In this document: positions 6,001-8,091 of the stretch, one piece after another
Position numbering within the stretch: position 1 is the first letter of the stretch
Layout of the letters: the number at the start of each line of letters is the position of its first letter
DNA from: a virus
Lineage: Duplodnaviria; Heunggongvirae; Uroviricota; Caudoviricetes
Length of the DNA stretch: 8,563 nucleotides
IMG/VR virus record: IMGVR_UViG_2529292904_000011
Coordinates: 1 to 8,563 of that record
Strand: one strand, 5' to 3'
Program-made: the position numbers

Positions 6001-8091
6001 GTACAGCTAAGTGATGACCAGAAAAGAAAAGTGGCGGCACAGAAACGAGCAGAGTGTTTGCGTAAGGCGCGCCGGACTCCGGTTTCACCGATGAACCTGA
6101 CAGAAATAAAACAAGCGGTCAACAGACTACATTCTGAGTTGGGAATGGGATTTGAAGAGCGGCGGGTATTCCGACGATATAAAGGGACAGGAGAACAGAA
6201 TACGTCCGGAAACGCGCGGTCAAAAAAATGCTAAAAAATATCTGAGAGAGTTATTGCCTGTTACCATAAGAAAAAGCGACTTTAGTGGTCGCTTTTTGTG
6301 TCATATATAAGTCGTTTAAGTAAACCTGTCTGAACAGGTGCTCTGGTCGTGTTTGTCTTTGTTGGGTACAAATTGAGAATATTTTTCATTAATTAATCTT
6401 CTTCTGCAGGCTTCAATAACCCACGCTGAAAAATTACCTGAACCTTTCTGGTCAAGAGCGATGTTAATTTGTTCAATCATCTGGTTTGGAAATCGGATGT
6501 TGCGGGTTGTTGTTCTGCGGGTCCGGTTTTTCGGTGACATTTTCTTTCCTCTGGTGACAAGCTATATGGCGAGGATTTTACATGGCCGTGCTTCGTACGT
6601 TACCGGGCAGAATCAAAACTCTGAATACCCGGCGGGTGAATGTCCTGAAGGGTGAACAGCGTCGGGTCAGTGGCAGTGCCCGGGTTTCCCTCAAGCGTCG
6701 TATCTGGCTGAGGGATGCCGGACAGTGCTGTCTCTGTGGGCGTGTGGTTGACCTTTGTGACAGTGAACTCGATCACCGCATTGCACTTCAGTTCGGTGGT
6801 GGTAATGAGGAGACGAATCTCTGGACGCTCTGTACCGAATGCCATCGCCAGAAGTCAGTCAGTGAAACGGCGAGTGGTATGCCGGACCCGACGCTGCCGG
6901 AGGTCATGGCAGGGCAGACGATATCATCGGACTGTGACCCGCCCCGGGGGGGGGATCATCCGGCGAAAAAAACGATCGCCCCGGACACCGCCCCCCGTCT
7001 CATGCAGAGAAAAAATTCCTGTTTCAGGCCAGTTAACATGTTAACTGGCTGCCCGGGCATTTTTTCGGTTTTTATCTTTATTATTCAGTTTGTTGTGCGA
7101 AAAAAATGTTAACTGGCTTTTTCAGCAAATGTTAACCAGGCAGCAGTTAACATTTGCGGCATGAGACGCCGGGAAAAATGGGCTGAACCATACCCGGCTG
7201 AGTGCGTTATGGACCCGGGAGGAGGCTGTGCTGACAACGCAAAAACGAAAATTTGCGCTGGCGCTCATGTCCGGGAAAAACAAAACAGCGTCAGCCCTTG
7301 CCGCCGGTTATTCGGCGAAGACCGCCAGGATTAAAGGCTCGCAGCTGGCAAAAGATCCGGAGGTGCTCGCGTTTATAGCCCGTAAACAGTGCGAAACGGT
7401 GGAGGTGGATGAGGTTCCTGTTTACCGGCAGAAAAAATCAGAGCAGGAGGATAAACCCCGTCGCCGTGAGGTGGCTGCAATACCACAGCCGGACGAAACA
7501 AATCCGGAGATGCCTCCGCCCGCGGTGATATCTCATGGTATTGAATATATGGAGGATGGTCTTCCCGATCCGGTGAAAGCTATGGGGCAGATCCTGGTGG
7601 AAAACCTGATAATTGACCCGAAACTGGCACTGGATGCGGCCTGGCGACTGGCGCAGTTCACACACCATAAAAAAGGCGATGCCGGTAAAAAATCGGCAAA
7701 AGGTGATGCCGCGAAAAAAGCGGCTAACCGTTTTTCGGTGCCACCATCTCCCCGACTGGTGGTGAATAACCAGAATGAGGAAAGCGGATGATACCTGTAT
7801 GGAGCACGGCATGTCCGGACTGGGCAGAGCGCCTGAAAAAGGGACTGTCGATTATTCCGGCTCCGATTTATCCGGACCAGGCTGCACATGCACTGGCGAT
7901 TTTTAAACAACTGCGGATTGTGGATGCACCGGGTAGCCCGACGTTCGGGGAGTCCTGCGCACAGTGGGTGTTTGACCTGGTGGCGGCCCTGTTTGGCTCC
8001 TATGATGCGCAGACCGGTGTACGCCATATCAAGGAAGTTTTTATCCTTATCCCCAAGAAAAACAGTAAGTCCACGCTGGCCGCGGGGATCA

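What the first reader, a model, noticed from the sequence alone, without database searches (positions are those of the whole stretch)
6316..6581. Antisense-oriented RHH-like gene embedded in the late operon, with an internal palindrome
This is the only convincing minus-strand gene in the window. It encodes a 74-aa protein with a ribbon-helix-helix-like N-terminal half, is convergent with the perC-like gene, and shares the bidirectional terminator. Its start lies only 41 bp from the HNH start, so the two divergent genes have almost no room for promoters. The 3' coding region contains a 6-bp-stem palindrome ACCTGT-CTGA-ACAGGT at 6324-6339. It could be a moron regulator, an orphan antitoxin-like protein, or an autoregulator.
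Basis: partly seen in the sequence, partly recalled or inferred. Interest (0 to 1): 0.4.

Follow-up and report, generated by a model that had tools for sequence, protein, structure and literature searches.

The report
Known YlcI/YnfO prophage gene, RHH-like
The flagged minus-strand ORF is a real gene, but it is already annotated: a YlcI/YnfO (DUF3950) small protein found in most E. coli genomes and in phage lambda, probably a ribbon-helix-helix DNA-binding regulator whose target is unknown, and its internal palindrome is no more than chance would give.

Summary
The 74-aa ORF at 6316-6540 (-) is real. It matches Pfam DUF3950 (E 1e-19) and NCBIfam YlcI_YnfO_N. RefSeq annotates the identical sequence as 'YlcI/YnfO family protein'. 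Related DNA occurs in 4183 of 5426 complete E. coli genomes, and phage lambda carries an unannotated 64-aa copy about 200 bp from its right end.

Only the first 45-53 codons are conserved, under strong purifying selection (pN/pS 0.05-0.2). The C-terminal tail and both flanks are mosaic. In 74 of 80 viral contigs the gene is the last one before the packaging module and diverges from it, across three terminase types.

An AlphaFold model has two helices after an extended basic N-terminus. All named fold matches are ribbon-helix-helix proteins, though none is statistically significant. A sister subfamily carries paired TGGTAnnTACCA palindromes at its promoter, which suggests autorepression. No such site lies near this gene.

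The shared terminator and the 41-bp gap are confirmed. The 6-bp palindrome is at chance level. The GTTAAC repeats track the terminase type, not YlcI. No toxin partner exists.

Verdict: a known family of uncharacterised function, and modest interest.

The parts
6316..6540 (-). ylcI/ynfO-family CDS, 74 aa (stop codon 6316-6318). The DNA is identical to the CB9615 gene annotated as WP_000074669.1.
   Evidence: ORF; Pfam DUF3950, 70.6 bits against a cut-off of 25; NF041551, 35.7 against 30; PHROG 949, E 2e-31; RefSeq annotation, identical DNA.
6394..6540 (-). Conserved module, codons 1-49: a basic N-terminal arm (KNRTRRTTTR), a predicted beta-strand NIRFP, helix A, a GSGNFS turn and helix B. This is the only part shared with lambda, DLP12, Qin and the Stx phages.
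   Evidence: BLAST matches start at about 6393-6406 and stop at the start codon 6540. Alignments. pN/pS is 0.05-0.23 in this frame. AF2 secondary structure.
6319..6393 (-). Variable C-terminal tail (INEKYSQFVPNKDKHDQSTCSDRFT). It is mosaic and travels with the perC cassette. Model confidence is low here.
   Evidence: Different tails occur in lambda/YlcI, YnfO, Stx2a_F349 and L009b. pLDDT is 56-63 in the last blocks.
6324..6339 (.). 6-bp-stem palindrome ACCTGT-CTGA-ACAGGT inside the tail codons 68-73. It is at chance level.
   Evidence: 19 observed against 12.9 +/- 4.2 expected in the window; z -1.7 to -2.0; the T68I variant.
6271..6297 (.). Bidirectional intrinsic-terminator hairpin shared by perC (+) and ylcI (-).
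   Evidence: I12: 10-nt arms, 100% complementary, 7-nt loop; z -3.6 on both strands; identical in all perC-ylcI cassettes aligned.
6544..6551 (-). Shine-Dalgarno sequence GAGGAAAG, 3 nt upstream of the ATG.
   Evidence: Read directly from the sequence.
6575..6580 (-). Candidate -10 hexamer TAAAAT for ylcI. It overlaps the SD-ATG spacer of HNH. There is no good -35, and the site is unverified.
   Evidence: Sequence. Conserved in the divergent HNH-type locus L009b. Not reported by the consensus scan.
5920..6234 (+). PerC-family gene, the convergent neighbour. It forms a mobile cassette with this ylcI variant.
   Evidence: E 2e-44. PerC is the downstream neighbour in 56 of 80 viral loci.
6582..7112 (+). 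HNH endonuclease gene, the divergent neighbour. It belongs to the HK97-like packaging module. Here a 10-bp deletion between 6896 and 6897 shifts the frame.
   Evidence: HNH; deletion relative to Stx2a_F349 and BP-4795; RefSeq calls it a pseudogene in CB9615.
7028..7157 (.). Five ATGTTAAC repeats between HNH and terS, probably cos or TerS-binding elements. They are not linked to YlcI.
   Evidence: 5 found against 0.27 expected; present only in HNH/TerS-type loci and absent from all Nu1-type ylcI loci.

Best explanation
The ORF at 6316-6540 (-) is a functional member of the YlcI/YnfO (DUF3950) family.

Protein. Its conserved first ~49 residues most likely fold as a ribbon-helix-helix module. That module would consist of a basic N-terminal arm, a beta-strand (R13-N14-I15-R16-F17-P18), helix A (19-32), a GSGNFS turn and helix B (37-57). 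It would dimerise into a two-stranded ribbon that reads DNA. The variable C-terminal tail is a mosaic appendage.

Expression. The gene is a self-contained leftward unit with its own SD and a terminator shared with perC. Its promoter must lie in the 41-bp gap or in the first codons of HNH. It is antisense to the Q-dependent late operon. I therefore expect expression when late transcription is off, as with the lambda gene bor, and suppression by head-on late transcription after induction.

Function. I infer that it is a small DNA-binding regulator, most likely a repressor, whose operator has not been identified.

Shown here: the gene, its family, purifying selection, synteny, the terminator and the helical core.
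Inferred: the dimeric RHH ribbon, DNA binding, timing of expression and regulatory role.
For: Family membership.

Selection on this frame: window against lambda shows 17 synonymous and 3 nonsynonymous changes in 49 codons (pN/pS 0.05). The wobble-coincident antisense frame scores 0.2-0.6 and carries stops in 4 of 14 homologues.

Family-level evidence for DNA binding: a sister subfamily has two TGGTAnnTACCA palindromes flanking a -10 box and abutting the ATG. A search by that DNA pattern alone recovered a DUF3950 gene at the expected place in 54 of 86 loci, plus 6 distant RHH-like ORFs.

Context: contexts are diverse, which fits a generic regulator. They include prophage right ends, PICI-like satellites, a gene leading an HD-domain operon, and chromosomal sites beside TonB receptors.

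Transcription: ybcW-ylcI is listed as a convergent transcript overlap in K-12 RNA-seq (PMC12288877).
Against: - The monomer model shows no strand by DSSP. A dimer model could not be run.
- No Pfam RHH family matches apart from RHH_6 at E 0.09 in 1 of 18 members.
- Profile comparison with Arc and Mnt gives an in-register alignment but only P 0.011 and 0.1.
- No operator-like repeat is shared by the independent upstream contexts of ylcI.
- The TGGTAnnTACCA site is absent from the window and from all lambdoid ylcI loci fetched.
- No consensus sigma-70 promoter was found for the gene.
- No experimental study of the family turned up in the library.
Confidence: 0.55

Rival explanations
1. Packaging-linked factor or helper-satellite cross-talk. 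YlcI would act at or near cos together with, or against, the small terminase. Examples: holding back cos cleavage in the lysogen, or interacting with the DUF3950 proteins of PICI-like satellites. It would not be a general transcription regulator.
For: - In 74 of 80 viral contigs it is the last gene before the packaging module and diverges from it, across Nu1-type, a second TerS type and HNH+TerS type modules. The same holds in lambda, DLP12 and Qin.
- Satellites inserted in the terS of a helper like this one carry fusions of DUF3950 to the first ~50 residues of TerS. These are 58-64% identical to the window's TerS.
- The beta-strand N and R and the NFSAWV-EAC helix are shared by YlcI and the satellite proteins.
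Against: - The gene is antisense to the late operon that makes terminase.
- The family also occurs far from any terminase.
- The right end of lambdoid genomes is a general site for accessory genes such as bor and DUF1398, so the synteny could simply reflect genome architecture.
- The 80 loci are close relatives and are not independent.
Confidence: 0.13
2. Orphan RHH antitoxin-like adaptor. The N-terminal RHH would dimerise, and the variable tail would bind and neutralise a partner protein encoded elsewhere.
For: - The best structural matches are RHH antitoxins: KacA, RelB, ParD, TacA.
- PHROG HicB-like gives E 0.009.
- The tail varies with the neighbouring module. YnfO-type tails go with a co-directional DUF1398 gene in 17 of 80 loci.
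- One distant member overlaps a downstream HD-domain gene by 23 nt, an arrangement like antitoxin-toxin.
Against: - Here no gene is co-transcribed. Downstream lies a terminator and then the convergent perC; upstream is the divergent HNH.
- No PADLOC defence or toxin-antitoxin model matches convincingly.
- Tail variation is equally explained by mosaic recombination.
Confidence: 0.12
3. The transcript is what matters. Leftward transcription from the right end would work through convergent or head-on interference with perC or late read-through (an excludon). The protein would be secondary.
For: - ybcW-ylcI is listed among convergent excludons in K-12.
- The orientation is invariably antisense.
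- The terminator is shared and bidirectional.
Against: - Strong purifying selection acts on the protein sequence.
- The protein family persists at 35-50% identity in unrelated contexts.
Confidence: 0.08
4. The element is not a meaningful gene. The conserved ~150 bp would be only a recombination linker between modules, or the real ORF would be the plus-strand one at 6461-6655.
For: - The block is flanked on both sides by unrelated sequence and occurs up to 12 times per genome.
- The plus-strand frame is open in many copies.
Against: - pN/pS is 0.05-0.2 on the minus frame against 0.2-0.6 on the plus frame.
- The plus frame has stops in 4 of 14 homologues while the minus-frame protein stays intact.
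- The third codon positions of the two frames coincide, so it is a shadow ORF (my analysis coordinates).
- Distant homologues keep the protein, not the DNA.
Confidence: 0.03

Closest known systems
E. coli K-12 YlcI (DLP12) and YnfO (Qin); Pfam DUF3950 / NCBIfam NF041551
   Same: The N-terminal ~49-53 residues are at least 92% identical. The NFS motif is present. The size is 60-80 aa. The position is the same: divergent from the small-terminase gene at the prophage right end.
   Different: The C-terminal tail differs. The neighbours here are perC and HNH rather than ybcW/ybcV or ydfO and a Nu1-type terminase. The intergenic gap is 41 bp rather than about 389 bp.
Unannotated 64-aa ORF of phage lambda, NC_001416 48109-48303 (complement)
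   Same: Same family. Its amino-acid sequence is identical to K-12 YlcI. It is the last ORF before cos and is transcribed leftward.
   Different: It carries no annotation in the RefSeq lambda record. Its tail differs, and it sits in a lambda-type cos/Nu1 context.
P22 Arc and Mnt repressors (Arc/MetJ ribbon-helix-helix superfamily)
   Same: Small phage proteins with the same order of elements: strand, helix, turn, helix. The N-x-R-[WF]-P strand motif aligns in register. By my recollection the aligned Arc residues N11 and R13 contact bases. Arc appears among the fold matches.
   Different: Sequence homology is not significant (2.6 bits; hhalign probability 3.9%). No operator has been identified. 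The genomic position is different, since this is not an immI region.
RHH antitoxins (RelB, KacA, ParD, TacA)
   Different: There is no adjacent toxin gene and no operon partner at this locus.
lambda bor and other lambdoid 'moron' genes
   Same: A leftward, self-contained unit with its own terminator, lying between the lysis genes and cos and antisense to the late operon.
   Different: It encodes a basic, nucleic-acid-binding type of protein, not an envelope lipoprotein. Its promoter and its expression in lysogens are unverified here.

Membership tests
YlcI/YnfO family (Pfam PF13132 DUF3950; NCBIfam NF041551) | Profile-HMM score above the curated cut-off | tested here: met
   Pfam 70.6 bits against a cut-off of 25. 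NCBIfam 35.7 against 30.
YlcI/YnfO family (Pfam PF13132 DUF3950; NCBIfam NF041551) | Conserved NFS motif followed by the W-V-x-E-A-C helix | tested here: met
   N36-F37-S38-A-W40-V41-I-E-A44-C45. F37 and V41 are invariant, and S38, W40, A44 and C45 are at least 90% conserved across 18 diverse members.
YlcI/YnfO family (Pfam PF13132 DUF3950; NCBIfam NF041551) | Small protein beside the small-terminase gene of a lambdoid prophage, on the opposite strand | tested here: met
   HNH lies 41 bp away and terS about 690 bp away, both divergent. The pattern holds in 74 of 80 viral loci.
Ribbon-helix-helix (Arc/MetJ/CopG) superfamily | Order of elements: N-terminal strand, helix A, short G-x-S/T/N-type turn, helix B | tested here: met
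   AF2 predicts an extended segment 1-18, helix 19-32, turn G33-S-G-N36 and helix 37-57. DSSP assigns no strand, as expected for a monomer model.
Ribbon-helix-helix (Arc/MetJ/CopG) superfamily | Significant structural similarity to solved RHH proteins | tested here: inconclusive
Ribbon-helix-helix (Arc/MetJ/CopG) superfamily | Sequence-profile match to a curated RHH family | tested here: not met
   Only RHH_6 at E 0.092, in 1 of 18 members. Arc and Mnt by hhalign give P 0.011 and 0.1. A PDB profile search gives no RHH match.
Ribbon-helix-helix (Arc/MetJ/CopG) superfamily | Obligate intertwined homodimer forming an antiparallel beta-ribbon | not testable with these tools
Ribbon-helix-helix (Arc/MetJ/CopG) superfamily | Sequence-specific binding to repeated operator half-sites | tested here: inconclusive
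   The sister subfamily has paired TGGTAnnTACCA sites at its own promoter, with the gene found in 54 of 86 pattern-selected loci. No such site, and no other shared repeat, lies near this gene.
Type II toxin-antitoxin antitoxin (RHH class) | Co-transcribed adjacent toxin gene | tested here: not met
   A terminator lies 19 nt past the stop codon, followed by the convergent perC. Upstream is the divergent HNH. PADLOC gives no toxin-antitoxin or defence match.
Prophage 'moron' (autonomous accessory unit) | Own promoter and terminator, inserted between or against phage operons | tested here: inconclusive
   The terminator is present. GC content dips to 36-37% across the gene against 54-62% in HNH. 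No consensus promoter was found, only a candidate -10.

The most novel reading that the evidence does not exclude
YlcI-type proteins, including lambda's unannotated copy, may be prophage-expressed RHH repressors at the right end of the genome that cross-talk with the DUF3950 repressors of PICI-like satellites. These satellites parasitise the same phages. YlcI could act in either of two ways. It could bind the satellites' TGGTAnnTACCA operators, since the strand residues N and R are the same. Or it could form mixed dimers through the conserved NFSAWV-EAC helix. On this reading the helper's ylcI would be a determinant of satellite silencing or induction. The DUF3950-TerS(N) fusions would then be TerS-DBD mimics, analogous in logic to Rpp.
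Probability: 0.08. Interest if true: 0.65.

Novelty: already known. Interest (0 to 1): 0.27.

Why it matters
The locus itself is ordinary: one more copy of one of the commonest prophage y-genes in E. coli. The family, however, has no assigned function. EcoCyc-style reviews still list ynfO as uncharacterised (PMC11551758). It is under strong selection, it is nearly always the last gene before cos, and it is present but unannotated in the lambda reference genome.

Two results make the family experimentally approachable. The first is a fold-level assignment as ribbon-helix-helix. The second is a clear candidate operator, paired TGGTAnnTACCA sites, for a sister subfamily found in phage satellites. 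If YlcI proves to be a DNA-binding regulator active in lysogens, it would add a sixth lysogen-expressed function to lambda's short list. It might also connect helper phages to their satellites.

Tried and rejected
- The afdb50 fold library was unavailable.
- Sequence searches of PDB with the family profile gave no RHH match. P0191 against PDB also gave nothing, so the fusion is not Rpp-like by sequence. Rpp itself is a winged HTH plus coiled coil, not DUF3950 (PMC6739421).
- A search for an operator shared by independent ylcI upstream regions found nothing consistent. Both the HNH-type and lambda-type upstream regions contain GGTA[A/T]CGTA, at -63 and -86. This is a post-hoc motif from two contexts and is missing in the divergent HNH-type locus L009b, so I do not rely on it.
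- The near-invariant 72-bp core of the gene looked like a possible embedded DNA element. L009b carries synonymous changes throughout it, so shared recombination history explains it.
- The plus-strand ORF 6461-6655 was rejected as a shadow ORF.
- Rfam finds no RNA family in 5900-7300.
- PADLOC gives no credible defence match.
- Literature on ylcI, ynfO and DUF3950 gives only gene lists and probable paralogue-mapping variants, with no functional data.
- GTTAAC repeats as YlcI targets were rejected on co-variation grounds.
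Full report
**Setting.** The window is the late region of a lambdoid prophage of the O55:H7/O157:H7 type. In order it carries Q, tRNAs, a SASA esterase, holin, RrrD lysozyme, Rz, a PerC-family gene (5920-6234), the flagged minus-strand ORF, an HNH endonuclease gene (6582-), repeats between HNH and terS, terS (7228-7791) and terL. The stretch 5900-7300 is 99.8% identical to E. coli O55:H7 CB9615 and RM12579.

**The observation.** The ORF runs from 6540 to 6316 on the minus strand and encodes 74 aa. 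GAGGAAAG lies 3 nt before the ATG. The gap to the HNH start is exactly 41 bp. The hairpin AAAAAGCGAC-N7-GTCGCTTTTT at 6271-6297 lies between the two convergent stop codons. It folds significantly better than shuffles on both strands (z about -3.6) and has a T-run on each side. The simple scanner missed it, apparently because the A/T extension of the stem uses up the T-run (my inference).

The palindrome at 6324-6339 exists but is unremarkable. The window holds 19 perfect 6-bp stems with short loops, against 12.9 +/- 4.2 in shuffles. Its folding z-score is -1.7 to -2.0. It lies in the non-conserved tail, and a natural variant (T68I) alters one arm.

**What the gene is.** The protein matches Pfam DUF3950 (E 1e-19; 70.6 bits against a cut-off of 25), NCBIfam YlcI_YnfO_N (35.7 against 30) and PHROG 949. 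RefSeq annotates the identical DNA in CB9615 as 'YlcI/YnfO family protein' WP_000074669.1. DNA related to the gene occurs in 4183 of 5426 complete E. coli genomes, with up to 12 copies per genome. The full-length 74-aa variant is in 670 of them.

The K-12 paralogues are ylcI (DLP12) and ynfO (Qin). Both diverge from the Nu1-like genes nohD and nohA. Phage lambda itself encodes a 64-aa copy at 48109-48303 (complement), about 200 bp from the right cohesive end. Its amino-acid sequence is identical to K-12 YlcI, and the RefSeq lambda record has no annotation there.

The family is small in sequence space. Only 113 clusters at 50% identity were found among 1.84 billion representatives, and many of those look like noisy reads of lambda DNA. 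I suspect these are nanopore control-strand reads; this is from memory.

**It is a coding gene on the minus strand.** Homology between loci is confined to codons 1 to about 45-53. It stops exactly at the start codon on one side and inside the gene on the other. Within that block, window against lambda differs at 20 of 147 nt, with 17 synonymous and 3 nonsynonymous changes (pN/pS 0.05). All pairs with enough synonymous change for a ratio give 0.00-0.29.

The plus-strand ORF 6461-6655 is the wobble-coincident shadow frame. It gives pN/pS 0.2-0.6 and carries stops in 4 of 14 homologues whose minus-frame protein is intact. An apparently invariant 72-bp core is not invariant in the more divergent copy L009b, which carries synonymous changes throughout it. 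I therefore attribute it to shared recombination history, not to an embedded DNA element.

**Synteny.** A scan of IMG/VR returned 80 loci. In 74 of them the gene is immediately followed upstream by a divergent packaging gene. Three arrangements occur: a Nu1-type TerS at 381-447 bp, a second TerS type at 467-478 bp, or HNH at 42 bp with TerS at about 696 bp. The six exceptions have no such gene upstream; the five I inspected are rearranged or lack an upstream ORF, and the sixth (L040) starts 41 bp before the gene.

The perC-ylcI cassette combines with all three packaging types. The gene's 5' end is therefore a mosaic junction. These loci are close relatives, so the count overstates independence.

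**Fold.** With an 18-sequence alignment, AF2 gives mean pLDDT 71 (77-85 in the core). The model has an extended residues 1-18, helix 19-32, turn GSGN and helix 37-57. This is the ribbon-helix-helix order of elements. A monomer cannot form the ribbon, and a dimer could not be modelled.

- Foldseek against PDB returns NikR, YiiF, Arc, ParD2, TacA, a plasmid ParB, MatP, CopA, CdbA and similar proteins, almost all RHH, but the best E-value is 0.97.
- BFVD matches include several 'Ribbon-helix-helix DNA binding domain protein' entries and a 'Repressor'.

Sequence-level links are weak. They comprise PHROG HicB-like at E 0.009, RHH_6 at E 0.09 for one member and CdbA at E 0.27 for a distant member, in register. 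Arc and Mnt align in register (N-x-R-[WF]-P) but without significance. I rate the RHH assignment at about 0.8.

**Family-level evidence for function.** One subfamily has proteins that begin MQEKK and carry a KNIRFED strand. It occurs in PICI-like satellites and in Enterobacter-type islands. Its genes are preceded by two 12-bp palindromes TGGTAnnTACCA, about 33 bp apart. The palindromes flank a -10-like box, and the second abuts the ATG.

I ran the reverse test by scanning public genomes and viral contigs for that DNA pattern alone. I estimate about 3 chance matches in the 596-Gb genome set, and 64 genomic plus 22 viral loci were found. Of these 86 loci, 54 have a DUF3950 gene starting right after the second site. 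Six more have a 56-58-aa ORF that aligns to the family over the whole domain (hhalign P 5e-4). One has a frameshifted copy.

The spacer sequence and the central dinucleotide vary between groups, and the flanking genes differ. The gene is therefore the only constant partner of the sites. That is the signature of an autoregulated repressor.

YlcI has the same strand residues (RNIRF against KNIRF). However, no TGGTAnnTACCA occurs in the window or within 3 kb of any lambdoid ylcI fetched. The independent ylcI upstream regions also share no convincing repeat. DNA binding by this particular protein is thus an inference, and its target is unknown.

**Context outside prophages.** Distant members lie after a TonB-dependent receptor/DUF2946 near copC/copD, after cytochrome bd-II genes and beside a fimbrial cluster. 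One leads and overlaps an HD-domain gene in an island with SymE and RhuM. This diversity favours a generic small regulator over a packaging-specific factor.

Against that, Pfam's own description notes an association with Terminase_2 (this is from memory). I did find fusions of DUF3950 to the first ~50 residues of a TerS that is 58-64% identical to this window's TerS. They occur in satellites inserted into the terS of a helper of this type.

**How it most likely works.** The gene needs its own leftward promoter. HNH does not need one, because it is read from the Q-modified late transcript, as established for lambda. The 41-bp gap is therefore not a paradox.

The only candidate promoter element I see is a -10-like TAAAAT at 6575-6580 (minus strand), overlapping the HNH SD-ATG spacer and with a poor -35. 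Expression is plausibly lysogenic or early, and opposed by head-on late transcription. In K-12 the ybcW-ylcI pair is listed among convergently overlapping transcripts (PMC12288877).

The product would dimerise and bind DNA through its ribbon and basic arm. Its regulatory target could be a local promoter, host genes or satellite operators, and remains to be found.

An EMSA on the GTTAAC repeats should be negative. Five ATGTTAAC copies (0.27 expected) occur in every HNH/TerS-type locus. None occur in Nu1-type loci, whose YlcI has an identical DNA-reading strand. The repeats therefore belong to the packaging module.

**Verdict.** The RHH reading is supported at the fold level. The antitoxin reading lacks a partner gene. 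The gene is an already annotated member of a known family of uncharacterised function, so the locus is of modest interest.

The more interesting by-products are three: the unannotated lambda copy, the strict position next to cos, and the operator architecture of the satellite subfamily.

Noticed in passing
L003 2710-2904 (-) = NC_001416.1 48109-48303 (complement): Phage lambda encodes a 64-aa YlcI/YnfO-family protein about 200 bp from its right cohesive end. Its amino-acid sequence is identical to K-12 YlcI. The RefSeq lambda record has no feature there.
   Followed up: yes
L009 4545-4589; L026 3956-4001; L108-L193: A DUF3950 subfamily (MQEKK...KNIRFED) has two TGGTAnnTACCA palindromes about 33 bp apart. 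They flank a -10-like box and the second abuts the ATG. Searching by the DNA pattern alone recovered the gene in 54 of 86 loci, plus 6 distant RHH-like ORFs. Many loci are PICI-like satellites carrying int, an AlpA-like gene and a primase, where the gene sits in the position expected for a repressor.
   Followed up: partly
L009 5001-5363; L008 4714-5103: Satellites inserted in the terS of a helper like this window encode fusions of DUF3950 to the first ~50 residues of TerS. These are 58-64% identical to window TerS residues 2-54. The fusion genes are preceded by GTTTAACAC or GCACAAACAC repeats that recall the window's ATGTTAAC repeats. They may be TerS-DBD mimics, analogous in logic to Rpp.
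   Followed up: partly
window 6582-7112, deletion between 6896 and 6897: The HNH gene has lost one copy of a 10-bp direct repeat (CCGGAGGTGT/CCGGAGGTCA) relative to Stx2a_F349 and BP-4795. This shifts the frame after the catalytic motif and gives a 176-aa ORF instead of 121 aa. RefSeq calls it a pseudogene in CB9615.
   Followed up: yes
window 7028-7157: There are five ATGTTAAC copies (0.27 expected), arranged as nested inverted repeats between HNH and terS. They are conserved in all HNH/TerS-type loci and are probably the cos or TerS-binding region of this HK97-like packaging module.
   Followed up: partly
window 8212-8334 (+): A strong Rfam match to isrC Hfq-binding sRNA (150 bits) lies just after the terL reading frame breaks off at 8159. 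This suggests an insertion or rearrangement in the large-terminase gene of this prophage.
   Followed up: no
window 1135-1368 (+): Rfam reports three tRNA-like genes (1135-1206, 1215-1287, 1294-1365), whereas ARAGORN calls only two (Asn-GTT and Gly-TCC). The middle one may be degenerate.
   Followed up: no
L017-L021, L013: Distant chromosomal DUF3950 genes lie directly after a TonB-dependent receptor/DUF2946 pair and next to copC/copD, or after cytochrome bd-II genes. The family's invariant Cys in helix B and this copper-related neighbourhood hint at a role in metal-responsive regulation in those lineages.
   Followed up: no
window 6461-6655 (+): A 64-aa plus-strand ORF lies antisense to ylcI, in the frame whose third codon positions coincide with those of ylcI. 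It is also open in lambda, but it is interrupted in 4 of 14 homologues and is less constrained. It is a shadow ORF.
   Followed up: yes
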